From Parcubacteria bacterium C7867-008 (lineage in GTDB: Bacteria; Patescibacteriota; Minisyncoccia; Phycocordibacterales; Phycocordibacteraceae): a DNA stretch of 64,000 nucleotides. The stretch's first letter is position 1, and each line of letters starts with the position of its first letter. The position numbers and the translations under genes are program-made. Of the stretch, positions 42 to 13,380 are shown one piece after another. The DNA is taken from contig LFCR01000004.1 of the NCBI GenBank assembly GCA_001189215.1, forward strand, positions 313,635 through 377,634, written 5' to 3'. The notes beneath the pieces were generated by a model that did not search any database, had not been told where the DNA came from, and worked only from the letters and a program-made list of their open reading frames with translations.

Positions 42-368
42 TTACTGCCCTTCTTTCAGTCGGTCGATGATCATCTTGTAGCCTCCGGTGCCTTCTTTGA
101 GCCAGCGGTTTATCTTGGTGATCGTTCTAGGAGAGACCATTTCGTCGCCGTCCCACTTTTCCTGAATCTGCGTGAAAGACATACCTGCGTCAAGCATTTT
201 TGCGACCTCCAATCGCATACCGAACTCACGGAGATCCCGCTCGCTCATGAGATCGCGGAAGAAAGCCTTGAGCTCGTCTTCGTTTTTAAGCGACAGAAAA
301 GCCCTGATGAGGTCAGGCGATCTCTGCTCGATTTCGGCCCATATTCCGTTCTTTTCCTGGTCGTCCAT
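42..368 (-). CDS. TrpR-like YerC/YecD family DNA-binding protein
   Basis: 108 aa; overall similarity to the YerC/YecD TrpR-like family as I recall it (segments WAEIEQRSPDL...LSERDLREFGMRLEVAKML...SPRTITKINRWL). Confidence 0.55.
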   Translation of the reverse strand: MDDQEKNGIWAEIEQRSPDLIRAFLSLKNEDELKAFFRDLMSERDLREFGMRLEVAKMLDAGMSFTQIQEKWDGDEMVSPRTITKINRWLKEGTGGYKMIIDRLKEGQ

Positions 369-425
369 AGTGCTTCACTTGATTATAGCAATTTTCAGGG
401 CCGGAGGGGAAGCTTGAGATTTCCT

Positions 426-782
426 TTACTTTTTCTTCAGTTTTTCTTTATCTTTTCTTGAGGAAAACTTTACTTTTGGGATCAGCTGGAACTTCTGCAC
501 CTCCCTGGTCGCCCGATCAACGTCGGCGCTTACCCGGAGGGCTATCTCCCTACTCCGTTTGCTCTTGCGGTTGTTGAAGACGAACTCCACTTCCTCGTCG
601 TCTATAAAAGTAGCGAGTGAGATGTAGACCGCCGCCAGGTGCCGTATGCGGTCCTTGAGCGCTTGCTTCATTTTTGCCTTTGGCTGCGAAAGCCTAGAAA
701 GCCGATTGAATATCTCGTGCCGGTTGAAGGGTATGCGGATGTTTTGGGCAGCCTTTTCGATCGCCTCTATGTCTTCGTCCAC
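426..782 (-). CDS. hypothetical basic protein
   Basis: 118-aa intact ORF in the same minus-strand operon, Lys-rich C-terminus, no recognisable domain. Confidence 0.35.
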   Translation of the reverse strand: MDEDIEAIEKAAQNIRIPFNRHEIFNRLSRLSQPKAKMKQALKDRIRHLAAVYISLATFIDDEEVEFVFNNRKSKRSREIALRVSADVDRATREVQKFQLIPKVKFSSRKDKEKLKKK

Positions 783-835
783 AGCATACGAACATACCGA
801 GAAACGGGCAGGATATCTAGGAGGACCCTATGGGC

Positions 836-1573
836 CTAATTTCCAATTATCCCTAATATAAGCAAGGCTCCTATTACAAGCATTAGTCCTGCCACCACGT
901 AGCGAACAAAACCAATGGTGGTCTTTTTCATATATCTCGCACCAAGCCACGCACCAGCAAACGCGCAAAGTGTCCCGAAACCAATTAAGGCTATCTCGTG
1001 TTGCGTTATAGATGCGGCGTCCTTCAACCCAATCGCGTAAGTTGGTAGACGCACAAGATCAATCAGGACGGCAATAAATACTCCAGTTGCTATATATCGT
1101 TTCGCATCAAAGTCGGACTTCAAGAGGAACATGGAGCGCAGCGCACCCTGCTGTCCTGATAGACCACCCATAAACCCTGTGAGGACGCCGCCGAGGGAGA
1201 GATACTTTTTTGGGAACGTAAGACGCTGGAACCACGTCTGAAACTCGAGGACCGCAAAAATAATGAGGACGGCACCAATCACGATAGCTGCGACACGTGT
1301 ATCCAAATAAGTGAGCAGGGACGCGCCGATAATGGCGGCTGGGATGGCAGGAAGGCCGAAGCGAAGTACCGTTGGCCAGTCAACGAGCTTTCTTACGAGC
1401 GAGCCCTTGAAGAGGTTGTTGAGTAAGTGGACCGTACCTGTTGCCGCGAGTGCGATAGGTGCAGAAAAGAAGAGTGCAAAAGCAGGAAGTAGGAGAGTTC
1501 CCAAACCGAAACCTGAGAATAACGTGAGTGCTGACGCACCGAATGCTACAAGCCCGATAATCAAAAAATCCAT
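836..1573 (-). CDS. TauE/SafE (DUF81) family anion permease
   Basis: 245 aa, about 7-8 hydrophobic helices, Gly-rich N-terminal helix typical of TauE/SafE sulfite-exporter-like permeases. Confidence 0.6.
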   Translation of the reverse strand: MDFLIIGLVAFGASALTLFSGFGLGTLLLPAFALFFSAPIALAATGTVHLLNNLFKGSLVRKLVDWPTVLRFGLPAIPAAIIGASLLTYLDTRVAAIVIGAVLIIFAVLEFQTWFQRLTFPKKYLSLGGVLTGFMGGLSGQQGALRSMFLLKSDFDAKRYIATGVFIAVLIDLVRLPTYAIGLKDAASITQHEIALIGFGTLCAFAGAWLGARYMKKTTIGFVRYVVAGLMLVIGALLILGIIGN

Positions 1574-1606
1574 ATGTTCAATATACTCTTTTTTCTAACA
1601 GGTGCT

Positions 1607-1867
1607 CTACGCTAGAAAAACTGGGTTCGGATTCTGGCCAATGACCTCGAGGGTGTCCTGCTTTATGATCCGGCCGCAGTCGGCGCAAACATACAAGCCG
1701 TTCCAGTTGCTCCCGATCGTAGGCTCCATCTCGTTCCCTTTCTCGTCACAGGGGTAAAAACCGCCGTCACAGGGCGTATTTTTGCAGATGCAGTGCCAGG
1801 CGTCCCGGTCCTCCGGCTCGTGGGTTATATGTTCTTTGGGCATAGTGAACGACACTACTGTAAGCAA
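1607..1867 (-). CDS. small Cys-rich protein (putative metal-binding)
   Basis: 86 aa with 9 Cys in C-x-C / C-x2-C spacing (CICKNTPCDGGFYPCDEKG...CADCGRI). Confidence 0.35.
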   Translation of the reverse strand: MLTVVSFTMPKEHITHEPEDRDAWHCICKNTPCDGGFYPCDEKGNEMEPTIGSNWNGLYVCADCGRIIKQDTLEVIGQNPNPVFLA

Positions 1868-1890
1868 AAAACATAGTCAACGGGTGGGAA

Positions 1891-2727
1891 TTACCAGCAA
1901 ACCACGGGTTTCTCACCGATCTGTTGTTCGAGGTAATTCTCTGCTTCAGTCCAACTACCGATTTCGTCGATGAGCTTGAGCGAGATTGCTGCAACCCCGA
2001 GCACGGAAGAGCCGTCAGCGATTTTCCTTACTTCTTCTACCGGGATGTTTCTGTTTTCGGCGACCGCTTCTATAAAGTTCTCGTGGACGATTTTAACGTC
2101 TCGGAGGAGCACCGCTTTTTCTTCCTCTGTGAGCGGCTTATCTGGATCGCCTGCGTCTTTGTATTTTCCGCTTGAGAGCTGAACGTACTTCTTGGTGTCG
2201 TCGATATTCTCCAGGTAAGACATCGTGACGCCGATGCCGCCAATATCTGAGTTCTTTGAGGCGAAGATATGATCCGCGCCGGTTGCGGCCAGGTATGCTG
2301 CCGATGTCCCGCTCTGCCGTATGACAACGACTGAAGGCTTGCTGAGCGCTTTAAGGGCGTTTGCTATTTCTTCTCCCGCCACTGGCGCTCCCCCGTATGA
2401 ATCCACTTCCAGCAGTACCGCCTTTATACTCGGATCATCATCTGCGCTCATGATCGCGCTGACTACTTCCTCGCTTCCGACCACATCCTCGGTCGCGGCA
2501 TCTTCTTCTTCCTCGCCCCTCATTTCATTCGGAACGTATGTGAGCATGGTGCCGTGGAGATTGATCCCCATCACTGTGCAGCTTGAGTCATCATAACTAT
2601 CCGAGAGCATCTCCCCATCCCCATACATGACCGAGTCGTAAATCGCGTAGCTGATGAAGCTCAGGACGACGAACGCGATAGCAATTCCACCGAAGAAGAG
2701 GGTGCCTTTAAGGTATTTGTTCGTCAT
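1891..2727 (-). CDS. sppA: signal peptide peptidase SppA (S49 family, 36K type)
   Basis: N-terminal TM anchor followed by ClpP/crotonase-like S49 signature SAAYLAATGADHIFASKNSDIGGIGV. Confidence 0.7.
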   Translation of the reverse strand: MTNKYLKGTLFFGGIAIAFVVLSFISYAIYDSVMYGDGEMLSDSYDDSSCTVMGINLHGTMLTYVPNEMRGEEEEDAATEDVVGSEEVVSAIMSADDDPSIKAVLLEVDSYGGAPVAGEEIANALKALSKPSVVVIRQSGTSAAYLAATGADHIFASKNSDIGGIGVTMSYLENIDDTKKYVQLSSGKYKDAGDPDKPLTEEEKAVLLRDVKIVHENFIEAVAENRNIPVEEVRKIADGSSVLGVAAISLKLIDEIGSWTEAENYLEQQIGEKPVVCW

Positions 2728-2729
2728 GC

Positions 2730-3308
2730 CTAGTACTGGTTGAACTGTGCTGGATCGACCTCGCTTGCGCTTGCGGTGCCACCAGCGACAGAGTTAAGAG
2801 TTACCTCCCAGCCCGCGGATTGCGTGCTCGTTGTATCGAAGGGGAAGGTATCGTCAAAGGATTGGAAGTGCTCGTTTCGGTTGAACTTCTGCGCGGTCGC
2901 GTCCCAGTCCGTTCCTTGGGCAAAGGCGAGCCAGTAGGTACCGTCGCTGATGCCCTCCATCGTGTAGGTATCGCCTGCCTTAATGTAGACAGTAAGGACC
3001 GAAGCGCCGTCACGGATCAGCTTTGCCACAGCGTCGTAGCTGGTTCCGTTCGATATCTCGAGTTGCCCCTCCCCACCGAGGTAGGCGGCACGCTTCTTTA
3101 TCACTGTGCCGGTCGGCAAGGAATTGCCTGGCGTGAGGTCCGGCTGGTAGTCGGAGGTTTGCTCTGCTTGTGCTGACGTATCTGGAGGCGGAAGCGACGA
3201 CGAGTTGCTGCTGTCATCGAGCGCCCCTGCAATGATCACGATTGCGATAAGACCGAGAAACCAGAAGCGGCCTGCTATGGAAAGTAAATGACTAAAAAAG
3301 TTCTTCAT
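2730..3308 (-). CDS. secreted/membrane-anchored hypothetical protein
   Basis: 192 aa, N-terminal hydrophobic anchor, Ser-rich linker; the stop abuts sppA by 2 nt. Confidence 0.4.
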   Translation of the reverse strand: MKNFFSHLLSIAGRFWFLGLIAIVIIAGALDDSSNSSSLPPPDTSAQAEQTSDYQPDLTPGNSLPTGTVIKKRAAYLGGEGQLEISNGTSYDAVAKLIRDGASVLTVYIKAGDTYTMEGISDGTYWLAFAQGTDWDATAQKFNRNEHFQSFDDTFPFDTTSTQSAGWEVTLNSVAGGTASASEVDPAQFNQY

Positions 3309-3311
3309 AAA

Positions 3312-3653
3312 TTATGTATTTGCTGATAATGATTTCTTCGGTGAATTGAAGAATACGAGCGCGACCACCAGGTCCGCGATGGACCAGAGGAAGTGTCCGA
3401 AGTAGAGAGGGTTAATAGGATTGAAAATGATGGCGATCACAATCATGACAACCATCCACTTTGTATTCTTCTCCTTGTGGTAAAGCCAGGCTGAGTGCGC
3501 TGCTGCTGCGAACACCACTAACTTCAGGAATTGGTAGGCGAAATAAGGCCAGATCGGAATTATCGCAATGAGCAGGAGGATGCCTGCGATCTTTGAGAAG
3601 AGTATTCGGTATTTTATATGCTCAGGGCTGGTCATGGCGTTATGCTCTTTCAA
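3312..3653 (-). CDS. small integral membrane protein
   Basis: 113 aa, 3-4 predicted TM helices; its start overlaps the end of the AAA+ gene. Confidence 0.4.
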   Translation of the reverse strand: MKEHNAMTSPEHIKYRILFSKIAGILLLIAIIPIWPYFAYQFLKLVVFAAAAHSAWLYHKEKNTKWMVVMIVIAIIFNPINPLYFGHFLWSIADLVVALVFFNSPKKSLSANT

Positions 3654-4725
3654 GGTCAGAGAACTGGTCGTAGTAGGTGATTTCGTGCTGGGAGATCGAC
3701 GGCTTGAATTTGCTGATGACCGAGACGATCATCTTTTCTGTGATCGAATTCCGGTCCTCTGCAACGGCGAGCCGGGCCACTTCCGTCACGATAAGCTCGA
3801 TGTCTGAGCTCACGAAGAATTCCGTCATCTCGGAGAGCTTTCCGAAGTCGATGTCCGCTTCGTAGGGACGGCCGGAGAGACAGAGCTTGAACATCTCCTT
3901 GCGAGCCTCGAAGTCTGGCGGCGACACGTAAATTCGCTTGTCCATGCGTCCGGAGCGCATGATCGCCGTATCGATGAGATGCGGGCGGTTGGTTGCGCCG
4001 ACGATAAGGATGCCGTTGTCTCCGGCGTCATTGAACTGCATGAGAAACTCGTTGATCTCCTCCTGCTTGTGCGCGGTGCTCGACACGAGGTTTTCTCTCT
4101 TAGGCAGCAATCCCTCAAGCTCGTCGATGAATACGATGGACGGACGCTTTGCTTTCGCCATGTCGAATACCTTCGCTATTTTCTCGACGCTTCCATGCAC
4201 GTAAGGAGAAGCAACGTCCGAGTGTTTTACCTCGACGAAGTTGTAGTTGATTTCTTCTGCGAGCTTACGGACGATGAATGTCTTGCCGCAGCCTGGTGGC
4301 CCGTAGAGAAGGATTCCATTCGGTACGGAGAGTTTGAATTTCTTGAATTTCTCCGGATTCAGGAGCGGCTCGATGACTTCCTCTCGGAGCAGCGTCTTTA
4401 GGTCGTTCATTCCCGCGACGCAGTCAAAGCCGCGCAGGACCGTCAGCTCGTCTATGATCTTGACGATCATTTCCTGCGAGTGGGATTCAGTGATCACGCC
4501 CAGCTCCTCCGTTCCATTGAGATTGAACTTCACGAGCTCGTACTTTCCTTTTCGATCGATGACGTCGTTCGGCTTTATCGTCGTGAAGAGGTAGAAGAAC
4601 TTGCCGTTAGACAGCGAATAAACCTCGGTGAAGAATATCTTCTCGATACGGGCGACGATGGTAATGTCATCCTTTAGCTTGAAGCCGGGATGCAGCGCTG
4701 GTTTTGTTGGTGTTGTATTTGTCAT
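3640..4725 (-). CDS. AAA+ family ATPase (Cdc48/SpoVK-like single AAA domain)
   Basis: Walker A GPPGCGKT, Walker B IVFIDELE, sensor-1 GATNRP and arginine finger (AIMRSGRMD), with an N-terminal substrate-like domain. Confidence 0.75.
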   Translation of the reverse strand: MTNTTPTKPALHPGFKLKDDITIVARIEKIFFTEVYSLSNGKFFYLFTTIKPNDVIDRKGKYELVKFNLNGTEELGVITESHSQEMIVKIIDELTVLRGFDCVAGMNDLKTLLREEVIEPLLNPEKFKKFKLSVPNGILLYGPPGCGKTFIVRKLAEEINYNFVEVKHSDVASPYVHGSVEKIAKVFDMAKAKRPSIVFIDELEGLLPKRENLVSSTAHKQEEINEFLMQFNDAGDNGILIVGATNRPHLIDTAIMRSGRMDKRIYVSPPDFEARKEMFKLCLSGRPYEADIDFGKLSEMTEFFVSSDIELIVTEVARLAVAEDRNSITEKMIVSVISKFKPSISQHEITYYDQFSDLERA

Positions 4726-4726
4726 A

Positions 4727-5593
4727 TTAATAAGGCGCCGTGCAGATGTACGCTCCGTCTTCTACATACCCCGCGTACCGGCTGTTGCGCCCCACGTCGC
4801 GCTCGCACGTTTGGTTGATGGAGGCGGTCGTGACACAGGCGTTGCGAGCTATGTTGAAATCGTATCCGTAGCTGCAGTCGCAGACCCGCTTCCCGTTTTC
4901 GGTAGTTGAATAGCTACCCGACCCGAAGGATGCCTGGCACGATTGATTGTAGGATGTCTGGCTGTAGCAAGCAGTTCGATCATTGTTCCAGGAATATCCG
5001 GCTTTGCAGTCGCAGATGCTGGTGCCCTCCTCGTCGTAGCGTAGGAAGCTCGAATTCGCCCACTCTGCCGAACAGCTGTCGTTCCGTGCCTCTAGTAGGC
5101 TAACGCACTGGTTCGTTGTATCGCTCGTGTAGTAGCCGCTCATGCAGCCGCAGCTGTTGTCGGTACTATCATAGGTAGCATACGATCCGTGCCGTTCCTG
5201 GCAGATCTCGTAGTTCGACTTCGTGGTCGGTTCTGGAGCCGTGTATACCGGCTCGGGTTCTGGCTCAGGATCAGCCACAGAAGGCTTAGGCAGCTCTGCG
5301 GGTGCCTCTGTGGTGTCTGCTACCGCCGTAGGGGCTTCTATAGCCGGTGTTGCGCCGGTAAGGGCGTCAGAGCCGCTATTATTGCCGCTGGTGCCTATCC
5401 AAGCGCCGATGATGATGATAGCGCCGACGAAGACGGCACCGGCGATCCACTTGGCATTGTCCGACATCGGCTCATCATCGAAGGAGGTCGAGGGCTCGTC
5501 TTTCTTTTTGGCAGCAGCTTTTTCAGGGCTCGCCGCTGGTGCGTCCTTCTCTAAGAAATCGAGATCAAGATTGAGTTTGTCCTTCTTTTCCAT
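4727..5593 (-). CDS. single-pass membrane protein with Cys-rich repeat ectodomain
   Basis: 288 aa; cytoplasmic N-terminus, one TM, Pro/Glu linker, then four or more repeats of C-x-C-x2-GY-x6-10-C. Confidence 0.45.
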   Translation of the reverse strand: MEKKDKLNLDLDFLEKDAPAASPEKAAAKKKDEPSTSFDDEPMSDNAKWIAGAVFVGAIIIIGAWIGTSGNNSGSDALTGATPAIEAPTAVADTTEAPAELPKPSVADPEPEPEPVYTAPEPTTKSNYEICQERHGSYATYDSTDNSCGCMSGYYTSDTTNQCVSLLEARNDSCSAEWANSSFLRYDEEGTSICDCKAGYSWNNDRTACYSQTSYNQSCQASFGSGSYSTTENGKRVCDCSYGYDFNIARNACVTTASINQTCERDVGRNSRYAGYVEDGAYICTAPY

Positions 5594-5597
5594 GTGT

Positions 5598-6311
5598 TTA
5601 TGAGGAGCCTAGGGCCGCGAATCCTATAACGAGTGCATAGAATATTCCCGGCGCGACAGCGAACCACCAGATCGCTCGACCTTTTTCTGCTCCCATGACT
5701 TCCCTTGCTGCTTTGTAGCCCATTCGTATTGCGTAAATAAGGACCGGGATCAAGAGCAGGAAGCAGATTATATCAACGACCGATCCGTCGTAGGCGTAGC
5801 TGGAGAAGTAGTCGTCTCCATACGCCATGTTATTGAAAACAAACGAGAGGATGCTTAGGAACGCGATCGGCAATGAGGAGAAGACATAAATATTCCTTGA
5901 TGTGTCGACGTTGCGGTTTCCCTTCGACCATCCTATTCGCACGTCATAGAACCAGCCCGCGATGAAATAAACGAGGGCTCCTGAGAGGATGCCGCCGAAG
6001 AGCGCGATTGCCCATGCTTCGCCCCAGCTCGAGTAGTCGCTGCTTGATCCGATGACGCGATCCGCGACAGTTCCCACGCCGACGACCCACACTACGAAGA
6101 GGAGGTATTTCGGGTTGTTCTTTGTCGTCAGATACTTCTCGGCGAATTTCGGGAAGTGCGTGAAGCACTCCTTGAAATACTCAAGGAACTTTACCTGGTC
6201 GCCGTGCGCTGCGGCCGCCTTTGGCTCTGGAGCTGCAGCCGTGCTCTTTTCAGCAGTCGGCTTGGCGTTTTCGTCCAGGAAGTTGAAGTCTAGGTGTGTT
6301 TTTTCGCTCAT
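5598..6311 (-). CDS. multi-pass membrane protein (Yip1-like topology)
   Basis: 237 aa, about 5 TM helices; its N-terminus shares the motif LDxxFLxxxAxP with the adjacent gene. Confidence 0.45.
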   Translation of the reverse strand: MSEKTHLDFNFLDENAKPTAEKSTAAAPEPKAAAAHGDQVKFLEYFKECFTHFPKFAEKYLTTKNNPKYLLFVVWVVGVGTVADRVIGSSSDYSSWGEAWAIALFGGILSGALVYFIAGWFYDVRIGWSKGNRNVDTSRNIYVFSSLPIAFLSILSFVFNNMAYGDDYFSSYAYDGSVVDIICFLLLIPVLIYAIRMGYKAAREVMGAEKGRAIWWFAVAPGIFYALVIGFAALGSS

Positions 6312-6315
6312 AAAA

Positions 6316-7914
6316 TTAATTGAATAGTGCGCCGAGCACGATGATGATAATGATCCACACTATCCAGCCGATTGCGCTCGACTTGGTGTTTTCGGCCTTC
6401 TTCTTTTTGATGACCTCGCCGAGGCCGACGTAGTAGTAGCCGTTGACGAGCACCTTGATCGCCATCTGCTCCCACCGCTCGTCGAACGCGTCGTCGATCT
6501 TCTTAATCATTTTATCCTGGATCGCATCGACCTCTTTGGCGTTTTCCGACGTCATGATTTTGACGTTGTCTTTTATCAGCTGTAGCCAGGAATCGACTAC
6601 CGACTTGTCGACATCGAATATCTCGATATTCTCGTAAACGATTGCGGCTGCTTTTTGCAGGCGAGGTGCCGCTTCGTCGTATTTATCCTTTTCAAATAGT
6701 TTGCGGCCCTCGAGGAATTCGCCCACGGCGTACATGGTTACTGCCTCCTTTTTCTTCGAGTTCATTGCATCGACCAGGTCCGTTTCGTCTTTGTGTTCTT
6801 CCTTAGTCTTGTCGATGAGAGCGATGGCTTCGACGTACTTCTTTTCTTTCAGGAGTTCGAGAACCGGGCTGATCTTTGCCATGTCCTTCTTGTTTTGCTC
6901 GAAGGTATCTAGGTCCTGCTGGAGTTTGTGCTTCATGCCTGGCGTACCCACGAACTGCATGGCGACCTTGAGCAGTTGCTCTGCCTTCGGAAGGTCGTCG
7001 AGGTTGTTATGGATATCCAGGACAATTGACCGGATGGCTGCGGCTGCGCGGTCCCGGATCGTCTTTGTCTGGCTGTCGTCGTACAGGCCGAGGTCTATAA
7101 GCTTGTTGCTGGATTCCTGAATCTGGCCGATGTACTGCTTTATCTGGGCAGCCTCATCTTGGTCGAACTCCCCGTCCTCGGACACCTTCATTGCTTCCAG
7201 TTTCTCGACCGCGGCGGTGATGTCATTGAAGATTGGGTTGAGGACCACCTTTTCGGTCTTCTGTCCTCGCACATTGAATAGCTGTCCGAATTCGCTTATG
7301 TACGAGTCGTCTTTGTGCTCGTGGCTGAGTTCGGTATAGAGGTCCGAGATGTATGACGCGCATTCGCTTTGGAATGCCGTGATGATTGCCTGATCGGTAT
7401 CTAGTTCGTCGTTCAGCTTGTAGGCTTTCGAGAAGGCGCTCCAGAATTTGGTCGAATTGACGATCTCGCTCCACAGCTGCAGGGATTTCTTGAGGTACTT
7501 CTCGTTGTTCTCTTTGAACAGGAGGAGTCCGTAGAGGATCGCCAAGTTCTTCTTATAGAAAAGTGCCTTGATGGTGTCGCCCTCGGCATGATGCTCCCAT
7601 ATCCTGATAGCCTCCTCCGGCTGCTTCTTCCTGAAGACTCCTACGGCCTGCTGGTCTATGTCGTCCGCGATGTGGAACCAGAAGAAGTATTCTTTGATCT
7701 GCTTCTTCGGCGAGGTAAGCCGCTGGATTGCTTCCTTCACTGATTCCTCGGTACGGAAATTATCAAAAATCCCGAGGTCGAGGTCGTACTCGGGAGTGTC
7801 GTCGATCTGAAGGAATTTTACGATCTCTTTCGCTCGCCTTTGTATGTCTTTCTGAGCTGCAGACGTGTCGAGGCCGAGGATGTGATACGCGTTGTTTTTG
7901 AGGAGGTTAGACAT
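6316..7914 (-). CDS. J-domain-like co-chaperone-like protein, C-terminal tail anchor
   Basis: N-terminal AYHILGLDTSAAQKDIQRRAKEIVKFL resembles J-domain helices I-II, but QIDD replaces HPD; the C-terminal 20 aa are a TM helix (IGWIVWIIIIIVLGALF). Confidence 0.45.
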   Translation of the reverse strand: MSNLLKNNAYHILGLDTSAAQKDIQRRAKEIVKFLQIDDTPEYDLDLGIFDNFRTEESVKEAIQRLTSPKKQIKEYFFWFHIADDIDQQAVGVFRKKQPEEAIRIWEHHAEGDTIKALFYKKNLAILYGLLLFKENNEKYLKKSLQLWSEIVNSTKFWSAFSKAYKLNDELDTDQAIITAFQSECASYISDLYTELSHEHKDDSYISEFGQLFNVRGQKTEKVVLNPIFNDITAAVEKLEAMKVSEDGEFDQDEAAQIKQYIGQIQESSNKLIDLGLYDDSQTKTIRDRAAAAIRSIVLDIHNNLDDLPKAEQLLKVAMQFVGTPGMKHKLQQDLDTFEQNKKDMAKISPVLELLKEKKYVEAIALIDKTKEEHKDETDLVDAMNSKKKEAVTMYAVGEFLEGRKLFEKDKYDEAAPRLQKAAAIVYENIEIFDVDKSVVDSWLQLIKDNVKIMTSENAKEVDAIQDKMIKKIDDAFDERWEQMAIKVLVNGYYYVGLGEVIKKKKAENTKSSAIGWIVWIIIIIVLGALFN

Positions 7915-7918
7915 GGGT

Positions 7919-10432
7919 TTATTTGGTAATGCCTGACATGCTGCCCTGGATTAGCTTCTGCTCCGAAGGCGGGAGGAGGAGCATCAGGTTGTGTACCGAT
8001 TTTTTAAGTGCGTCGACATCGCCCATCTCGATGGCACGCTGTCCCTTTTGAGTGTAGTAGTCGGCTTCGCTTTGGCTGGTCCACTTGTGATCCTTTTCAA
8101 GGATGGTGTTGAACAGATGGACCCAGGATGCCGGATTAGAAAGGACTACCTTGTGACCGAGTTCCTTGAGCTGCTCGAGAACTCGGCCAAGCATGACCTT
8201 GTCGCTAGATGCGAGCGCCTTCTCGCCTTCTTCTTTGACCACATTTAGCTGGTCCTGGTGAATCTCTTTTTCTTTTTCATCGCTGTAGGCATCTATAAGC
8301 TCTTGGATGTCCGTGGTTTTCTCATTGTATTCGGCAATCAGCTGTGGCAGCTCCTTTGCTTTCTCGAGGTAGTCGAGCTTGATCTTCAGTTCCTTGAGTT
8401 GCTTGTCTGCCTTGCGCTTCTCATCTTCGTCCACGTTCGCGGTTGCGATGCTGGTTTCGAGGGACTTCGTCAGGTCGCTCAGCTTTCCTTTTTCTTCCGG
8501 AGTGCAGGACTGACCGACTTTCTCACAGCGTGTGATCTGTTGCTTGAGCTGTGCCTCCATTTCCTCGATGCTGAGGTTCTCTGCATGAATAGTTGCACGG
8601 GCGCTGAAGGTTAGGTCGATTGAAGGAACGAAGGCTTCCACCTTGATCTCGCGGGATTCGTTTACCTCGATCGTGAGTGCGATCTCGGTACCTTCCGGGA
8701 GATCGTATGGGAGGTTTTCGCCGGTGACCTTCAAGTCACAGATGAATTGGTTTTGGTCCGGTACGTCGGATTCGCCCTCGCGTATCTTAATCGGGAGCGC
8801 GTTGTCCTTATCGCCCTTGGCGAGCTTCTTCAGGGTCTTGTAGGTCCGGGTCGCTTTGAGCGGCAGGATGCTGTTTTTCTCGAAGATAACCTCGAAGTCC
8901 TCCACCATTGCGAAGTTGCTGGTATTGAAATCTCGTCGTGCAACGCCCACGCCGATAGAGTGTGGTATTGGAGCTCCCGATACTGAAAGGCCGTGCGTGA
9001 TCGAGAACGATTCCGGTTCCGTCTTTATTGGATTGCCGTCAACATCGAAGAGGTATATCCAGAAGAGCGTGGTCTTGTTCTTCTCAATGCTCACCGTCTC
9101 CATGAATTTGCCGTTCTTGAGCTTCAGTTTCTTTCCACTGAAGGAACCTCCTTCGCTCTGTATCTGGACGTAGTATTCGCCCTCGGAGTCTTTGAGTTCT
9201 TCGACGATGCCGGTGATAGTTTCTTCAGTCTCGGAAGTGAGCGACTCGTAATTAAGACGCAACGTATGGATCGAGGCGTCCGTCGCCTTCTTCGATTCGA
9301 GGTATTCCTTCGGGATTTTCTGGCTTACGGCATAGATGCAGGCTCCGCGAGCTACGACTGTCAAAGGATCGGCCGAGGTGTCGACGTCGATCTTCAGGTC
9401 CTTCTCGAGACGCTCCTTGATATAAGGAATCATGGTCGGACCTCCGACGAGGACGATTTTAGCGACTGATGCCTGCTTCACTCCTGATTCCTTTATCGTT
9501 TCTTTGCTGAGCTCGATGGTCTTGTCTACCGACGGCTTGATCAGCTTCTCGAATTCGCTCTTGGTGTACGGGATGGTGAGGTAGATTTCCTTGCCATCAT
9601 CATCTGCGCCAATGTTCTCGACTTCGATGGTATAGCCCTCCATTTGTGAGAGGCTGATTTTCGCGTTCTCGGCGAAGTATTTGAGCTTAGAGAAAACGTG
9701 TAGGTATTTCTTGTTGCCACGATTGAAATCGGCGATCGTGAATTTCTCCAGAATCTTAGGGACGATAACCTTATCGACGATCGCGTTGTCGAAGTCTTTG
9801 CCGCCGAGGAAGTTGTCGCCGTTATGTCCGAGGACCGATAGCGTCCCGTCCTTTGATGAGATGAGGGCAACGTCGAAGGTGCCGCCGCCAAGGTCGTACA
9901 CTAGCCAGTTCTCGTTCTTAGCGTTCATGAATCCGTAAGCGATCGCTGCGGCGATTGGCTCCTGAAGGAGCACGACATGCTTGAAGCCAGCGTTATTGCC
10001 TGCTCGCTTCGTTGCCTCGGCCTGGAGGGTCGAGAAATACGCCGGGATCGTGATTACCGCGCCGACAGTCGAGGTATCTGGGAACTTGCGGAGAACATCC
10101 TCTTTGAGGGTCTTGAGTATCTCTCCGGAGATTTCTTCCGGGGTCAAATCCTCTCCGAGTCGGTCGAAGTGAACTTTGTCCGCGGTGCCCATCAGGCGCT
10201 TAACTTCCGCTTTGTTATTTGCAAATTCATCCTCGGAAGCATCCTTGAAAAGTTTTTCGTATGCTCGCTTTCCGACTATCTTATTCTTTGCTTTGTCGAC
10301 GCCGAAAACCGATGGCGTGTATTCGTCATTGAAAATGTTTTTTACGATCTCGACGTTGCCCTTGTTGTTCACGGCAACTTCAGAATTCGTTGTTCCTAGG
10401 TCTACGCCTATTTGTAGGTTTTGTGCGCTCAT
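7919..10432 (-). CDS. Hsp70-family ATPase (atypical, 837 aa, non-canonical C-terminal region)
   Basis: Actin-like Hsp70 NBD motifs IGVDLGTTNS, VITIPAYF, VYDLGGGTFDV, NGDNFLGGKDFD, VLVGGPTMIPYI and DPLTVVARGACIYA; the C-terminal ~450 aa do not resemble a DnaK substrate-binding domain. Confidence 0.75.
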   Translation of the reverse strand: MSAQNLQIGVDLGTTNSEVAVNNKGNVEIVKNIFNDEYTPSVFGVDKAKNKIVGKRAYEKLFKDASEDEFANNKAEVKRLMGTADKVHFDRLGEDLTPEEISGEILKTLKEDVLRKFPDTSTVGAVITIPAYFSTLQAEATKRAGNNAGFKHVVLLQEPIAAAIAYGFMNAKNENWLVYDLGGGTFDVALISSKDGTLSVLGHNGDNFLGGKDFDNAIVDKVIVPKILEKFTIADFNRGNKKYLHVFSKLKYFAENAKISLSQMEGYTIEVENIGADDDGKEIYLTIPYTKSEFEKLIKPSVDKTIELSKETIKESGVKQASVAKIVLVGGPTMIPYIKERLEKDLKIDVDTSADPLTVVARGACIYAVSQKIPKEYLESKKATDASIHTLRLNYESLTSETEETITGIVEELKDSEGEYYVQIQSEGGSFSGKKLKLKNGKFMETVSIEKNKTTLFWIYLFDVDGNPIKTEPESFSITHGLSVSGAPIPHSIGVGVARRDFNTSNFAMVEDFEVIFEKNSILPLKATRTYKTLKKLAKGDKDNALPIKIREGESDVPDQNQFICDLKVTGENLPYDLPEGTEIALTIEVNESREIKVEAFVPSIDLTFSARATIHAENLSIEEMEAQLKQQITRCEKVGQSCTPEEKGKLSDLTKSLETSIATANVDEDEKRKADKQLKELKIKLDYLEKAKELPQLIAEYNEKTTDIQELIDAYSDEKEKEIHQDQLNVVKEEGEKALASSDKVMLGRVLEQLKELGHKVVLSNPASWVHLFNTILEKDHKWTSQSEADYYTQKGQRAIEMGDVDALKKSVHNLMLLLPPSEQKLIQGSMSGITK

Positions 10433-10445
10433 AATGTTGGTGAGG

Positions 10446-10955
10446 TCAGTTAGTGACCAGAATTATTTTAGCTTTCCTGACCACCTGACCTTTGCAGATG
10501 ATGGTCGGCTCTACTGTCTCCTTTACAAAAGGAACCTCGATGCTTGGGTCTTTTTCAACCGACAAGACATCAAGGTTTAGGCCATCATTGTATTTTTTGC
10601 CTGTATAGTCAACGACCTCGATTTCATAACGGTCGAGGTAGGCAGTGAGCTTTTGGATTGAGGTTTCGAGGCCCTTCTTCTGGACCTCCGGGAGGTCGGG
10701 TCCGGCCTTTGCGATACGGTTCCCCATTCGCCATACTTCTACGGCAAGTTCGACGAGTTCGCCGACTCCCTGGCTGAGCTGTATGGTCTTAGGTTGTATT
10801 GAAAATCGGAGCTCTTCTCGGATCGCGTGAGTTGCTTCTGCGATCGCGTGTTCGATATGTCGTCGTGAGCTTAAGGAGAAATAAAGAACCACAACTAATA
10901 GTGCGAGGAGGAGGACTATCAGAATGATTTGTGGTCCAAGTATTAATGGGGTCAT
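10446..10955 (-). CDS. GrpE-like nucleotide-exchange-factor domain protein with N-terminal TM anchor
   Basis: The C-terminal YEIEVVDYTGKKYNDGLNLDVLSV...TIICKGQVVRKAKIILV aligns to the GrpE beta-domain (FGVEVI...DPNxHQAxxxV...GYxLNGRxIRxAxVxV); the N-terminal 25 aa are hydrophobic. Confidence 0.5.
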   Translation of the reverse strand: MTPLILGPQIILIVLLLALLVVVLYFSLSSRRHIEHAIAEATHAIREELRFSIQPKTIQLSQGVGELVELAVEVWRMGNRIAKAGPDLPEVQKKGLETSIQKLTAYLDRYEIEVVDYTGKKYNDGLNLDVLSVEKDPSIEVPFVKETVEPTIICKGQVVRKAKIILVTN

Positions 10956-11102
10956 AGCATAGCCTAAATCTTACCACTTTTTAATGTTAATGGCTATGGC
11001 AGAAGGCGGTGGGGACAAAAGCGCAAAAAAGCCGCTTGTTCCTAATGCTAACTATAGTATGTAGATTCATAGTTAGCAAGTGCCTAGACTTCATAGTAAC
11101 CT

Positions 11103-11315
11103 ATGAACAGGCAACTTTTAGTAAAATTCGGGAAGCGGGTGCGCGACGAAAGAATCAAAGCCGATCTTTCGCAGGAAAAGCTCGCCGAGAAGGCCAAGGT
11201 CCACAGGACCTACATTGGCATGATCGAGCGGGCCGAGAAAAACATCACGCTTTCAAACATGGAAAAGATAGCGAAGGCCCTCGGCATGAAGCTAAATCAG
11301 CTGATTGACTTCTAG
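11103..11315 (+). CDS. XRE/Cro-C1 family HTH transcriptional regulator
   Basis: 70 aa, classic HTH_3 (LSQEKLAEKAKVHRTYIGMIERAEKNITL...KIAKALGMKL). Confidence 0.8.
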   Translation: MNRQLLVKFGKRVRDERIKADLSQEKLAEKAKVHRTYIGMIERAEKNITLSNMEKIAKALGMKLNQLIDF

Positions 11316-11352
11316 TTGGCTTTCTGCTGAAAATAGCTATAATGTAAGCCAC

Positions 11353-11988
11353 ATGAGGACTAACGTTTATATCGATGCATCGAATCTTTTCTACGGCGGC
11401 AAGAAGTCGCTTGGTTGGAGCATCGACTATAAAAAGCTGTACGAATATCTTGAGGACAAATACCAGGCAGGACAGGTGTTCTTTTTCGGCGGCGTGGAGA
11501 TCCACAAGTTCCCTTTCAACTACCTAACGAATGATTCGGTGCCCGTGCGCGAGCTCGAGCAGTATCTGGTCAAATTGATTGCGGAGAAAGGCGACGCGCT
11601 GAGCGAAGCGGAGTTGAAGTTAATTGATCGCCACTTGAAGCGTGTGCGCTTCTATCTCAAGATTGCGAAGTTTGGATATCAAATGGTGTTGAAGCCGGTC
11701 AAGACTTTTTATGACGCGGAAGGCTCTCCAACTCGGAAGGCTAACTGCGATGTCGACATGGCTTTCTTTCTTATGCGCGATAAGAACATGTACGATCGTG
11801 CGGTCATTCTGTCTGGCGACGGGGATTTTCTGCCGGTGTTGAAGTTCTTGCGGGAGGAAGGCAAGAAGGAGATTTACATACTTGCTCACGCTTCGAGGAC
11901 GGCGAAAGAGATCAAGCGATTTGCTGCAGAGAAGTTTCTCGACTTCGCTTATTTGCGCGAACGCTTGAAGCGTACTGACGGAGAGTAG
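11353..11988 (+). CDS. NYN/LabA-like (PIN-fold) nuclease domain protein
   Basis: NVYIDASNLFYGG...CDVDMAFFLMRD...AVILSGDGDFLPVLKFLREEGK matches the NYN-domain acidic motifs. Start moved to the internal ATG (the ORF track starts at 11305). Confidence 0.6.
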   Translation: MRTNVYIDASNLFYGGKKSLGWSIDYKKLYEYLEDKYQAGQVFFFGGVEIHKFPFNYLTNDSVPVRELEQYLVKLIAEKGDALSEAELKLIDRHLKRVRFYLKIAKFGYQMVLKPVKTFYDAEGSPTRKANCDVDMAFFLMRDKNMYDRAVILSGDGDFLPVLKFLREEGKKEIYILAHASRTAKEIKRFAAEKFLDFAYLRERLKRTDGE

Positions 11989-13095: not shown

Positions 13096-13380
13096 TTATG
13101 GGTTAACTACTGGCAGTCGTTCGTCGAGAATCGTCTCGATCCGGGTGAGCCGTTCGCTTGTGCTTTGGAACTGGTCTTGGTTCTGATCGTCGATGCGCTT
13201 TACGTTTTCTTCGATCGTATGGATATGGTTGTCGCGTATGTTGTTCAGGGCCTCGATGACTTTGATGTCTTCCTTCGGTGCCTGCAGCATATTGAAGACT
13301 CCGAACGCGACGCCCACGATGCCGATCACGAGGGCCACCTGGTTGTATAAAAACTTCTTTAACGGCTCCGTTTTCTCCAT
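13096..13380 (-). CDS. holin-like small membrane protein
   Basis: 94 aa: one N-terminal TM helix (VALVIGIVGVAFGVF) plus a charged coiled-coil tail, immediately upstream of the endolysin. Confidence 0.4.
   Translation of the reverse strand: MEKTEPLKKFLYNQVALVIGIVGVAFGVFNMLQAPKEDIKVIEALNNIRDNHIHTIEENVKRIDDQNQDQFQSTSERLTRIETILDERLPVVNP

What the first reader, a model, noticed from the sequence alone, without database searches (positions are those of the whole stretch)
42..10955. Thirteen-gene minus-strand cluster: membrane-tethered Hsp70-like / J-like / GrpE-like trio co-operonic with AAA+ ATPase, SppA and Cys-rich membrane proteins
The genes from 10955 down to 1607 are separated by 2-25 bp or overlap, and the wider run continues to 42 with somewhat larger gaps, which suggests one operon. 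Order: a GrpE-like domain with an N-terminal TM; an 837-aa Hsp70 NBD protein with a ~450-aa non-canonical C-terminus instead of the DnaK substrate-binding domain; a J-like protein lacking HPD with a C-terminal tail anchor; a Yip1-like protein; a Cys-repeat ectodomain protein; an AAA+ ATPase; a small membrane protein; a secreted protein; SppA; a Cys-rich small protein; a TauE permease. A complete, membrane-anchored, non-canonical Hsp70 cycle coupled to an unfoldase and a membrane peptidase is not a standard annotated system. It may be a dedicated membrane-protein quality-control, secretion or assembly machine, perhaps for the giant surface proteins. Its divergent promoter is shared with the prophage XRE gene, so phage cargo or a defence function cannot be excluded.
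Basis: partly seen in the sequence, partly recalled or inferred. Interest (0 to 1): 0.75.

Follow-up and report, generated by a model that had tools for sequence, protein, structure and literature searches.

The report
Mobile membrane-tethered Hsp70–AAA chaperone module
The cluster is real, but its conserved part is a 4-to-9-gene module: a specialised Hsp70, its own GrpE-like and HPD-less J-like/TPR partners, a Cdc48-like AAA ATPase, and membrane proteins that all carry the same short N-terminal tag. The module travels on prophages and other integrative elements of tiny CPR bacteria and some archaea, and no paper found here describes it.

Summary
The 13 minus-strand genes and their tight spacing are confirmed. 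Comparison with about 55 related loci shows a smaller functional unit.

- **Universal core:** GrpE-like, then an 837-aa Hsp70, then a J-like/TPR protein, then a Cdc48-D2-like AAA ATPase.
- **Bacterial (CPR) versions:** the GrpE-like and J-like proteins are membrane-anchored, and one or two membrane proteins lie between the J-like and AAA genes.
- **Lineage-specific or unrelated genes:** DUF6804, the 192-aa protein and SppA are lineage-specific. TauE and the 86-aa protein are not part of the conserved block. The 118-aa protein and the Trp-repressor-like gene recur only sporadically.

A structure model and a profile alignment both show an SBD-beta and a helical lid, plus a roughly 90-aa insert.

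The new observation is a shared tag. Every membrane protein encoded inside the module, in four unrelated classes, starts with the same cytoplasmic motif (about K-x-H-L-D-I-D-L-E-F-L-D). The motif was found nowhere else in about 1 Mb of loci.

The module lies in the accessory slot of prophages and integrative elements. In this window and in a 73%-identical relative it lies between the lysis cassette and the integrase. Elsewhere it lies next to serine recombinases, restriction-modification, Gabija-like and AbiE genes.

Best reading: a mobile, self-contained Hsp70/AAA machine that controls its own tagged membrane proteins, probably for phage exclusion or abortive infection. The biological role is inferred, not shown.

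The parts
10446..10955 (-). GrpE-like nucleotide-exchange factor, 169 aa. N-terminal TM helix (about res 5-27, 10875-10943). GrpE-homologous C-terminal half (res 93-165, 10461-10679).
   Evidence: PF01025 E=0.0026 for this protein. 24/29 orthologues hit PF01025, best 5.5e-9. Alignment A3 has invariant W75 R76 G125 E149 P150. Always directly upstream of the Hsp70.
7919..10432 (-). Specialised Hsp70, 837 aa. NBD res 1-370 (9323-10432). Family-specific beta insert res 389-480 (8993-9268). SBD-beta res ~488-614 (8591-8971). Long helical C-terminal region res 622-830 (7943-8569). Conserved C-terminal ...SGIT tail.
   Evidence: PF00012 E=4e-75. AF2 pLDDT 78.5. Foldseek hits to full-length DnaK/BiP, E~1e-33. 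hhalign SBD-beta E=1.9e-5. Catalytic D11, K78, E158, D180, T185, D187 kept; DnaK J-contact residues R167/N170/T173 are V154/Q157/I160. More than 120 homologues at 58-95% identity.
6316..7914 (-). J-like/TPR co-chaperone, 532 aa. N-terminal J-like domain without HPD (res 1-80, 7675-7914). TPR-like alpha-solenoid (res ~85-480). C-terminal tail-anchor TM (res ~510-531, 6322-6387).
5598..6311 (-). Tagged membrane protein, class 3: Yip1-like, 4-5 TM, 237 aa. N-terminal tag HLDFNFLDE (res 6-14, 6270-6296).
   Evidence: PF04893 E=8.6e-8. Tag alignment. Class assignment.
4727..5593 (-). Tagged membrane protein, class 2: single-pass, N-in, Cys-rich repeat ectodomain, 288 aa. N-terminal tag LNLDLDFLE (5549-5575).
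   Evidence: Motif scan. N-termini. Class clustering.
3640..4725 (-). Single-domain classical AAA+ ATPase, 361 aa. Unique N-domain (res 1-~95). Walker A GPPGCGKT, Walker B IVFIDELE, pore loop SPYVHG, arginine-finger region RSGRMD.
   Evidence: PF00004 E=1.4e-34. Closest solved sequences are archaeal VAT and Cdc48/p97 D2, E=4.5e-89. Present in every locus whose contig reaches it.
3312..3653 (-). DUF6804 small membrane protein. Frequent accessory gene of the module.
   Evidence: PF20619 E=1.2e-18. Found after the AAA gene in about half of the loci.
2730..3308 (-). 192-aa protein with an N-terminal TM or signal anchor. Lineage-specific accessory gene.
   Evidence: Homologues only in close relatives and in L020/L042. 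No Pfam family.
1891..2727 (-). SppA-type S49 serine peptidase with an N-terminal TM. Lineage-specific accessory gene.
   Evidence: PF01343 E=7e-30. TIGR00706 145 bits against a 155 cut-off. Present next to the module in only about 9 loci.
11103..11315 (+). XRE-family HTH regulator, 70 aa. Divergent here; the first gene of the module in other loci.
   Evidence: HTH_3/HTH_31. A homologous XRE gene lies 2-6 bp upstream of the GrpE-like gene on the same strand in 13 of 48 loci.
10956..11102 (.). Divergent intergenic region. Carries a sigma-70-like site on the minus strand (11079-11051).
   Evidence: This is a consensus match only; the number of such matches is not above the shuffled control.
42..1867 (-). 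Four downstream genes that are not part of the conserved module: an 86-aa Cys-rich protein, TauE, a 118-aa protein and a Trp-repressor-like protein.
   Evidence: TauE and the 86-aa protein never recur next to the module. The Trp-repressor-like gene recurs in L008 and L059 as part of the same prophage arm.

Best explanation
The core is a horizontally mobile, self-contained chaperone/unfoldase machine, and its parts suggest the following working model.
- A specialised Hsp70 has an intact ATPase site, an SBD-beta and a lid.
- Its own GrpE-like exchange factor recycles it.
- A dedicated J-like/TPR protein positions it. That protein has lost the His-Pro of HPD, and the Hsp70 has changed the matching contact residues.
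- In CPR bacteria both co-chaperones are anchored in the cytoplasmic membrane, so the Hsp70 cycle runs at the inner face of the membrane beside a Cdc48-D2-like hexameric AAA+ unfoldase.
- The dedicated clients or partners are the one or two membrane proteins encoded inside the module. They have unrelated bodies: a coiled-coil ectodomain, a Cys-rich ectodomain, Yip1-like 4-TM and another 4-TM type. All begin with the same cytoplasmic amphipathic acidic handle (~HLDIDLEFLD).
- I infer that the Hsp70 SBD, the TPR solenoid or the AAA N-domain grips this handle. ATP-driven holding, unfolding or extraction then sets the state of these membrane proteins.

The module is cargo of prophages and integrative elements. 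It sits beside defence genes and is often headed by an XRE regulator. The most likely biological role is therefore conflict-related: the tagged membrane proteins act as exchangeable sensors or effectors for phage exclusion or abortive infection, kept in check or activated by the chaperone/AAA pair.

Shown: composition, synteny, domain homologies, the shared tag and the mobile-element context. Inferred: who binds the tag, the direction of action and the defence role.
For: - Synteny. GrpE-like > Hsp70 > J-like > [tagged membrane protein(s)] > AAA is kept in every locus whose contig reaches those genes. This holds across many Patescibacteria classes, in Woesearchaeota and in Nitrosopumilaceae.
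- Hsp70 competence. The catalytic residues are kept. The full NBD+SBD+lid fold is predicted.
- Co-chaperones. GrpE homology is found in 24 of 29 orthologues. J-domain homology is moderate and no HPD is present.
- AAA. All motor motifs and the pore-loop aromatic residue are present, and the nearest solved sequences are VAT and Cdc48 D2.
- Tag. It is present at the N-terminus of 47 distinct module-encoded proteins in 4 ectodomain/topology classes and absent from all other ORFs of the loci and the window. The class-1 family (223 hits) is of the same order of size as the J-like family (434 hits) in the same database, and both members checked lie inside the module.
- Mobile context in this window and one relative. 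The module lies between the phage lysis cassette and the integrase, both here and in a 73%-identical relative.
- Mobile context elsewhere. Large serine recombinases are the commonest nearest neighbours (7-8 of 150 proteins from about 42 loci), followed by 3 tyrosine integrases, methylases, Mrr, Fic and TraG/HerA. Gabija-like genes, a HaeII R-M system plus a cI/cro switch and AbiEii/SLFN/HsdM are adjacent in individual loci.
- Unrelated flanks. Even close relatives share only the module block.
- Horizontal transfer. CPR and Nitrosopumilaceae Hsp70s are 50% identical over 829 aa.
- Regulator. An XRE gene directly heads 13 of 48 modules.
Against: - No component hits any PADLOC defence model, apart from a generic AAA similarity to IetA.
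- No recognisable toxic enzymatic effector is present.
- The archaeal versions lack both the membrane anchors and the tagged proteins, so the tag-client idea cannot explain the whole family.
- The Hsp70 is unusually well conserved for a conflict system (58-95% identity).
- Only 1 of 2.9 million IMG/VR contigs carries the module, and no INPHARED phage or PLSDB plasmid does. CPR elements are probably poorly sampled in those collections.
- Which protein binds the tag was not tested.
- Co-transcription was not shown. The promoter and terminator scans are consensus matches only.
Confidence: 0.45

Rival explanations
1. Mobile proteostasis or stress-tolerance island. The module is a general Hsp70 + AAA+ bichaperone (disaggregase or membrane-protein extractase) that reduced-genome hosts gain by horizontal transfer. 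It would be analogous to the ClpK/ClpG-carrying heat-resistance islands of Proteobacteria. The tagged proteins would only be membrane adaptors.
For: - The module forms a complete Hsp70/NEF/J set plus an unfoldase with intact motifs.
- Sequence conservation is high.
- Soluble four-gene versions exist in archaea without any tagged protein.
- An S49 or trypsin-like protease sometimes follows the module.
Against: - The J-like protein has lost HPD and has no client-binding domain of the DnaJ type.
- The tag is restricted to module-encoded proteins, which argues for dedicated rather than general clients.
- The neighbours are recombinases and defence genes, not sHsps, thioredoxins or other stress genes.
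Confidence: 0.2
2. Phage life-cycle function. The prophage carries its own chaperone machine for virion morphogenesis, genome replication or control of lysis timing, and the tagged membrane proteins act as holin-like or spanin-like factors.
For: - In the window and in L059 the module directly follows the amidase lysis cassette in a prophage.
- Terminase genes lie within 10 kb in L058 and L061.
- Many phages depend on DnaK/DnaJ/GrpE (established knowledge).
Against: - Many loci show no phage structural genes. Their neighbours are RecG/RNR genes, transposases, R-M systems or conjugation-type genes.
- The slot between lysis genes and the integrase, and an XRE-headed operon, are typical of lysogen-expressed cargo.
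- The module was found on only one IMG/VR contig and in no isolated phage genome.
Confidence: 0.15
3. One reading: a housekeeping membrane-protein quality-control, secretion or assembly machine of the CPR cell envelope, perhaps serving the giant surface proteins.
For: - The co-chaperones are tethered to the membrane.
- SppA, a TauE permease and a 5746-aa ORF lie in the same window.
Against: - SppA is kept only in close relatives, and TauE and the giant ORF never accompany the module.
- Flanks differ between close relatives, and the module sits inside a prophage here.
- Archaeal versions are soluble.
Confidence: 0.12
4. A chance juxtaposition of unrelated genes with no functional link.
For: None beyond the lack of experimental data.
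Against: The same gene order is kept in about 55 loci, at Hsp70 identities from 95% down to 50% and across two domains of life, and genes are spaced 1-13 bp apart.
Confidence: 0.02

Closest known systems
DnaK-DnaJ-GrpE with ClpB (bacterial Hsp70/Hsp100 bichaperone)
   Same: An Hsp70 with NBD, SBD-beta and lid, a GrpE-type exchange factor, a J-type partner and an AAA+ unfoldase working together.
   Different: - The Hsp70 falls far below the DnaK and HscA equivalog cut-offs (251 against 822 bits). It carries a 90-aa insert and a 210-aa helical extension.
- The J partner lacks HPD and has a TPR body plus a tail anchor.
- The GrpE-like protein is TM-anchored.
- The AAA is a single Cdc48-D2-like ring, not the two-ring ClpB with an M-domain.
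- All genes lie in one operon on mobile elements.
E. coli HscC with tail-anchored J-proteins DjlB/DjlC (the third prokaryotic Hsp70 system; Mayer 2021, PMC8215388)
   Same: A specialised, sporadically distributed Hsp70 paralogue works with dedicated membrane-anchored J-proteins and is presumed to act on membrane proteins.
   Different: - Mayer infers from the absent GrpE signature and non-conserved contact residues that HscC probably does not use GrpE (PMC8215388). HscCs are also short (550-580 aa).
- DjlB and DjlC are listed there as class C J-domain proteins. That their HPD is canonical is from my own knowledge.
- Neither an AAA partner nor tagged clients are described for HscC.
Mitochondrial import motor (mtHsp70, Tim44, Pam18, HPD-less Pam16, Mge1) and ER Sec63/BiP
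   Same: An Hsp70 cycle is tethered to a membrane by anchored J and J-like proteins, with a GrpE-type NEF, and pulls on polypeptide segments that emerge at the membrane. An HPD-less J-like subunit is part of the machine. This comparison rests on established knowledge and was not tested here.
   Different: - No translocon partner was identified.
- The machine faces the cytoplasm of a prokaryote.
- The only J-type protein present is the HPD-less one.
Tom70/Tom71 and other TPR co-chaperones that dock Hsp70/Hsp90 tails
   Same: A membrane-anchored TPR solenoid. The best fold matches include Tom71-Ssa1 tail and FKBP38-MEEVD complexes. The Hsp70 has a conserved C-terminal tail (SGIT).
   Different: - There is no EEVD motif.
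- The TPR solenoid is fused to a J-like domain and anchored at the C-terminus.
Cdc48/p97/VAT and Msp1-type membrane-protein extractases
   Same: The AAA domain is closest to the VAT and Cdc48 D2 domains and has an intact pore loop. It lies next to membrane proteins that carry a cytosolic handle.
   Different: It has one AAA domain rather than two, an unrelated N-domain and no ubiquitin-type adaptors. Extraction activity is inferred only.
Toxin-antitoxin-chaperone (TAC) systems with a chaperone-addiction (ChAD) tag (bioRxiv 10.1101/2024.02.24.581848)
   Same: A dedicated chaperone is encoded with partners that carry a short chaperone-recognition extension. The system is mobile and linked to defence.
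   Different: TAC uses a SecB-like chaperone and a soluble toxin-antitoxin pair. Here the chaperone is an Hsp70/AAA pair, the tagged proteins are membrane proteins, and no toxin fold is recognisable.
Hsp70-like CnuD of CoCoNuT type IV restriction systems (PMC11090510) and IetAS
   Same: An Hsp70-like ATPase (CnuD) or a classical AAA ATPase (IetA) works inside a defence operon.
   Different: - CnuD is associated with McrB/McrC, has degenerate ATPase motifs and has no GrpE or J partners.
- The IetA model scores 102 bits against a 510 cut-off.
- No IetS protease is present.

Membership tests
Hsp70 superfamily (PF00012) | Actin-fold nucleotide-binding domain with the catalytic Asp/Lys/Glu/Thr set | tested here: met
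   PF00012 E=3.9e-75 over res 8-368. D11, K78, E158, D180, T185 and D187 align with DnaK D8, K70, E171, D194, T199 and D201.
Hsp70 superfamily (PF00012) | Beta-sandwich substrate-binding domain followed by a helical lid | tested here: met
   The AF2 model aligns with full-length DnaK and BiP over 620-790 columns. hhalign of res 512-600 against the DnaK SBD-beta gives E=1.9e-5, probability 78%. The helical region has no sequence similarity to the DnaK lid.
DnaK / HscA equivalogs (TIGR02350, TIGR01991) | Score above the curated whole-protein cut-off | tested here: not met
   251 bits against 822.55 for DnaK, and 217 bits against 708.55 for HscA.
GrpE (PF01025) | GrpE C-terminal four-helix-bundle and beta-domain region detectable by profile | tested here: inconclusive
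   The window protein scores 17.9 bits, below the 25.8 cut-off. At family level 24 of 29 orthologues hit, best E=5.5e-9, covering profile positions ~91-162. A profile search against PDB sequences finds no GrpE. The long N-terminal dimerisation helix was not examined.
J-domain (PF00226) | His-Pro-Asp motif in the loop between helices II and III | tested here: not met
   All 37+34 aligned sequences have I-D-D-x-P-E-Y-D-L-D in this loop. Only an Asp is kept (D39 or D46, depending on the alignment).
J-domain (PF00226) | Four-helix J fold and sequence homology | tested here: inconclusive
   Of 14 PDB profile hits, 10 are J domains, best E=0.0063. hhalign gives 55% probability. PF00226 hits 4 of 37 members, best E=0.0079. 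The AF2 helices lie at 9-12, 21-36, 56-65 and 69-77. No J domain appears among the top whole-chain fold hits.
Classical AAA ATPases (PF00004) | Walker A and B motifs, second region of homology with arginine fingers, aromatic pore loop, AAA lid | tested here: met
   PF00004 E=1.4e-34 and AAA_lid_3 E=7e-7. The motifs are read directly from the sequence (GPPGCGKT, IVFIDELE, SPYVHG, RSGRMD). The alignment to VAT D2 is shown.
Cdc48/p97/VAT | Tandem D1-D2 AAA domains with a double-psi-barrel N-domain | tested here: not met
   The protein has a single AAA domain in 361 aa. Residues 1-~95 match nothing in the PDB by sequence. TIGR01243 scores 177 bits against an 803 cut-off.
IetAS anti-phage system | IetA equivalog score and an adjacent IetS subtilase | tested here: not met
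   NF042959 scores 102 bits against a 510 cut-off. The PADLOC IetA hit (E=5e-33) covers the generic AAA core. No S8 protease was found in any locus.
Known anti-phage defence systems (PADLOC-DB v2) | Any component matching a defence-system model | tested here: not met
   There are no hits for the GrpE-like, Hsp70, J-like, Yip1, Cys-rich, DUF6804, 192-aa, SppA or 86-aa proteins.
Prophage / integrative-element cargo | Location inside an element bounded by a recombinase, variable flanks and association with other accessory or defence genes | tested here: met
   The element boundaries (att sites) were not determined.
SppA (S49) | Peptidase_S49 domain above the cut-off | tested here: met
   PF01343 scores 104.5 bits against 24.9. 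TIGR00706 scores 145 bits against 155, just below. The catalytic Ser/Lys were not checked rigorously.

The most novel reading that the evidence does not exclude
This is a fourth kind of prokaryotic Hsp70 system and the first Hsp70-centred immune or exclusion system. It is a phage- and island-borne machine (XRE regulator, GrpE-like, Hsp70, HPD-less J/TPR receptor, Cdc48-like AAA). It uses a short N-terminal 'LDxDLxFLD' handle as a universal adaptor to hold, extract or release interchangeable membrane effector or sensor proteins. The module has been exchanged between CPR bacteria and DPANN/Thaumarchaeota.
Probability: 0.25. Interest if true: 0.85.

Novelty: new variant of a known kind. Interest (0 to 1): 0.7.

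Why it matters
- **A further Hsp70 system.** Reviews list only three prokaryotic Hsp70 systems: DnaK, HscA and HscC (PMC8215388). This module would add a widespread, mobile one, with at least 210 clusters at 50% identity of its signature J/TPR protein. It has its own exchange factor, a J-like partner that has dispensed with HPD, and an obligate Cdc48-like AAA partner.
- **A testable recognition code.** The shared N-terminal handle on otherwise unrelated membrane proteins is a compact code. It links a chaperone machine to defined clients, which is rare for Hsp70s.
- **A possible new defence principle.** The module rides on CPR prophages next to defence genes. It may show how ultra-small, CRISPR-poor symbionts resist phages, or how their phages remodel the host envelope.
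- **Gene flow between domains.** The module documents exchange between CPR bacteria and archaea.

Tried and rejected
- **Single-sequence and profile searches against PDB sequences.** These covered the Hsp70 C-terminus, the GrpE-like family and the whole J-like family, and gave nothing useful. Only the profile of the first 100 residues recovered J domains.
- **Internal duplication in the Hsp70.** hhalign of the insert (372-482) and the C-terminal helices (615-837) against the SBD and lid found no relationship, so this idea was dropped.
- **PADLOC.** No defence model matched except a generic AAA similarity.
- **Literature.** Seven full-text searches found no description of the module. The CoCoNuT CnuD Hsp70 was read and rejected as unrelated in context.
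- **Other collections.** Searches of INPHARED phages and PLSDB plasmids gave no match. IMG/VR gave one contig.
- **Tag in archaeal loci.** A relaxed motif search found no tag there.
- **tRNA scan for an att site.** No tRNA gene lies in the window.
- **Link to the giant surface protein.** Rejected, because the giant protein is never syntenic with the module.

Full report
**What is in the window.**
- Thirteen ORFs lie on the minus strand between 10955 and 42. From the GrpE-like gene down to SppA the gaps are 13, 4, 4, 4, 1, an overlap of 14 (or a gap of 4 with the JGI start), 3 and 2 bp.
- The gaps then widen to 23, 33, 53 and 57 bp.
- A sigma-70-like site lies on the minus strand at 11079-11051, and no convincing minus-strand terminator lies inside the cluster. 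These are consensus matches only.
These are the Hsp70 NBD (E=4e-75), Yip1 (9e-8), classical AAA (1e-34), DUF6804 (1e-18), S49/SppA (7e-30), TauE (6e-25) and a Trp-repressor-like protein (2e-14).
- The GrpE call is sub-threshold for this protein alone (E=0.0026).
- The window comes from a Patescibacteria (Paceibacteria-type) contig, JGI 3300001199 J055_10000269.

**The Hsp70.**
- The claim that the 837-aa protein has a non-canonical C-terminus instead of an SBD does not hold.
- An AlphaFold model built from 36 homologues (pLDDT 78.5) has four parts: an NBD (1-370), a six-stranded beta insert (389-480), a beta sandwich (about 488-614) and a long helical region (622-830).
- Foldseek aligns the model with full-length DnaK, BiP and Hsc70 structures over 620-790 columns at E~1e-33.
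- A family profile of residues 478-640 aligns with the E. coli DnaK SBD-beta at E=1.9e-5.
- The insert and the helical extension have no detectable relatives.
- The catalytic residues are intact. The three DnaK residues that contact the J-domain HPD loop (R167, N170, T173) are V154, Q157 and I160, and these are invariant or nearly invariant in the family.
- The protein falls far below the DnaK and HscA equivalog cut-offs.

**The co-chaperones.**
- *GrpE-like family.* In alignment A3 the bacterial members have an N-terminal TM helix. The C-terminal half hits PF01025 in 24 of 29 members, best E=5.5e-9.
- *532-aa family.* It has no Pfam family of its own. Its conserved first 340-390 residues define at least 210 clusters at 50% identity at E<=1e-30 among 1.84 billion representatives.
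- *J-like domain.* A profile of the first 100 residues searched against every PDB sequence returns 14 hits, of which 10 are J domains, best E=0.006. hhalign gives 55% probability.
- *No HPD.* The HPD loop reads IDDxPEYDLD in all sequences, so the His-Pro is absent and only an Asp is kept.
- *Rest of the protein.* It is a confident all-helical TPR-like solenoid (pLDDT 86.9). The weak fold matches include Tom71 bound to the Hsp70 tail, P58IPK and FKBP bound to MEEVD. It ends in a conserved tail anchor.

**The AAA.** It is a single classical AAA domain whose closest solved relatives are the archaeal VAT and Cdc48/p97 D2 domains (E=4.5e-89). Walker A and B, the arginine fingers and an aromatic pore loop are present, and the roughly 95-residue N-domain is unique. 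Its similarity to IetA is generic (102 bits against a 510 cut-off).

**Synteny.**
- I fetched 49 loci from species-representative genomes using the J-like family, and further loci by exact-protein look-up. All ORFs were then compared with the 13 window proteins.
- GrpE-like, Hsp70, J-like and AAA occur in that order in every locus whose contig reaches them.
- DUF6804 follows in about half of the loci.
- The 192-aa protein, the Cys-rich protein and SppA occur only in closer relatives.
- TauE and the 86-aa protein never recur. Weak homologues of the 118-aa protein lie near the module, on the opposite strand, in two loci (L014, L030). The Trp-repressor-like gene recurs only as part of the same prophage arm.
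- The loci are mostly Patescibacteria of many classes. They also include Woesearchaeota and Thaumarchaeota, among them a complete Nitrosopumilaceae chromosome.
- The CPR and Nitrosopumilaceae Hsp70s are 50% identical over 829 residues.
- In the Nitrosopumilaceae locus read in detail (L050) the GrpE-like and J-like proteins lack TM segments, and in the archaeal loci the AAA gene follows the J-like gene directly.

**The shared tag (new observation).**
- In the bacterial loci one or two genes lie between the J-like and AAA genes, occasionally just outside them. Their products fall into four classes with unrelated bodies:
  - class 1: a roughly 200-aa single-pass protein with a conserved Cys-bracketed extracellular coiled coil (27 loci; alignment A4);
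  - class 2: a Cys-rich-repeat single-pass protein (window 4727-5593);
  - class 3: a Yip1-like 4-TM protein (window 5598-6311);
  - class 4: another 4-TM type.
- All begin with the same cytoplasmic motif, for example MKEPKDHLDIDLEFLDKKEP, KLKLDLDFLGE or SLNFDFLD. The window proteins have LNLDLDFLE and HLDFNFLDE.
- A regular-expression scan found the motif only at the N-termini of these proteins. It occurred in none of the other ORFs of about 1 Mb of loci. In the window it matched one further stretch, inside an antisense ORF on the plus strand within the Hsp70 gene, which I take to be a chance match.
- The archaeal loci have no such protein.
- The class-1 family (223 database hits) is about as large as the J-like family in the same database (434). 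Both members looked up lie inside the module.
- The alternating hydrophobic and acidic pattern would form an amphipathic strand. The positive-inside rule places it in the cytoplasm. Both points are read from the sequence.

**Genomic context.**
- Window 12-36.6 kb is a prophage. It carries a large terminase subunit (phrog_38, 1e-40), a ParB-methyltransferase, a Sak4-like protein and an amidase lysis cassette.
- The source contig carries a tyrosine integrase about 1.5 kb beyond the window start.
- A relative whose J-like protein is 73% identical (L059) has the same layout: LysM, a large protein, amidase, Fic, the module, SppA, TrpR, a phosphoribosyltransferase, the integrase and then host LeuRS. 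The module therefore occupies the classical lysogenic-conversion slot.
- Other loci put the module next to accessory or defence genes:
  - Gabija-like OLD/UvrD genes and a Cas4-like gene, with a terminase downstream;
  - a HaeII R-M pair, Fic and RadC on one side, and a cI/cro switch plus a serine integrase on the other;
  - AbiEii, SLFN and HsdM;
  - transposases and an Mrr-like nuclease in Nitrosopumilaceae.
- Among 150 nearest-neighbour proteins from about 42 loci, the commonest families are those of large serine recombinases (7-8). Tyrosine integrases (3), methylases, Mrr, Fic and TraG/HerA follow.
- Close relatives share only the module block and have unrelated flanks.
- An XRE HTH gene like the window's divergent one lies 2-6 bp upstream of the GrpE-like gene, on the same strand, in 13 of 48 loci.
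- The module is nevertheless rare in viral collections: 1 IMG/VR contig and no INPHARED or PLSDB record.

**Interpretation.**
- *Shown:* a conserved, mobile, co-linear module with an apparently active Hsp70, a GrpE homologue, an HPD-less J-like/TPR receptor and a Cdc48-like AAA. In bacteria it also has membrane tethers and tag-bearing membrane proteins.
- *Inferred:* the handle is the recognition element by which the Hsp70 SBD, the TPR groove or the AAA N-domain engages these proteins. ATP-driven holding or extraction then controls them.
- *Likely role:* four unrelated membrane bodies share one adaptor, which resembles effector swapping in conflict systems. The mobile-element and defence-island context and the XRE regulator point the same way. 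I therefore favour a lysogen-expressed exclusion or abortive-infection role (overall confidence 0.45).
- *Weaknesses:* there is no PADLOC match and no recognisable toxic enzyme. The archaeal versions are soluble and have no tagged protein. The Hsp70 is highly conserved. No interaction or expression data exist.

**Comparison with known systems.**
- The closest functional analogues are the DnaK/DnaJ/GrpE-ClpB bichaperone, E. coli HscC with tail-anchored DjlB/DjlC (PMC8215388), the mitochondrial import motor with its HPD-less Pam16, and Tom70-type TPR receptors. Cdc48/Msp1 extractases and the chaperone-addiction tag of TAC systems are also comparable.
- The module is not a member of the DnaK, HscA, Cdc48 or IetA families by their curated cut-offs or architectures. 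Its J-like domain fails the HPD criterion.
- Seven full-text searches found no description of the module. The Hsp70-like CnuD of CoCoNuT systems is a different entity.
- I rate it a new variant of a known kind, namely a specialised Hsp70/AAA+ system, with interest 0.7.

Noticed in passing
window 12000-36650: A prophage on the minus strand. It has an amidase lysis cassette (12485-13090), large structural ORFs, a large terminase subunit (28204-29988, phrog_38 E=1e-40), a ParB-methyltransferase fusion (30357-31685), a Sak4-like protein (33188-34378) and a phrog_21942 protein (35589-36632). GC drops from about 0.52-0.58 to about 0.46-0.50 at roughly 36 kb. The integrase lies about 1.5 kb beyond the window start, so the Hsp70 module is inside the element.
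   Followed up: partly
window 11103-11988 (+): An XRE HTH gene (70 aa) overlaps the start of an NYN-domain (predicted RNase) gene. The pair may be a regulator plus nuclease or a toxin-antitoxin-like or defence gene pair, sitting between the lysis cassette and the module. The NYN gene is not found next to the module in any other locus.
   Followed up: partly
window 38624-55864 (-): A single 5746-aa ORF, preceded by a 653-aa ORF at 36644-38605. It is never syntenic with the module.
   Followed up: no
window 836-1867 (-): TauE and the 86-aa Cys-rich (zinc-ribbon-like) gene are absent from the otherwise co-linear prophage arm of relative L059. They look like a local insertion between SppA and the 118-aa and TrpR genes.
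   Followed up: partly
window 13096-13380 (-): A 94-aa ORF just upstream of the amidase has a weak HEPN_Cthe2314 hit (E=7e-4, below the cut-off). Its position would suit a holin, so the HEPN hit is probably spurious.
   Followed up: no
L043:3149-5188 (Thaumarchaeota MAG): A second, canonical-looking Hsp70 (PF00012 E=7e-125) lies about 1.7 kb upstream of the module's GrpE-like gene.
   Followed up: no
L058:1-5325 and L060:1157-3281: A Gabija-like pair (AAA_15/OLD-TOPRIM plus UvrD) and a Cas4-like gene lie immediately upstream of the module in L058. A cytosine methylase plus HaeII-type endonuclease lie immediately upstream in L060.
   Followed up: partly
L016, L022, L023, L034, L037-L039, L045, L047, L049, L051, L053 (record titles): Several module-bearing contigs belong to MAGs labelled Gammaproteobacteria, Pseudomonadota, Bdellovibrionales, Akkermansia, Bacteroidota, Xanthobacteraceae or Methylocystaceae. 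Their proteins are 40-55% identical to CPR versions. I could not tell whether these labels reflect binning errors or real transfers outside CPR and archaea.
   Followed up: no
L050:10001-11758 (Nitrosopumilaceae): The archaeal J-like protein lacks the tail anchor. It carries a Cys4 zinc-ribbon-like insert and a beta-rich C-terminal region of about 170 aa that looks PH-like by eye. This may replace the membrane tether and tagged partner of the bacterial versions.
   Followed up: no
window 7922-7945 (C-terminus of the Hsp70): The last residues (…SGIT-x) are invariant or nearly so across 36 homologues (G834, I835, T836). They may form a docking tail analogous to EEVD.
   Followed up: no
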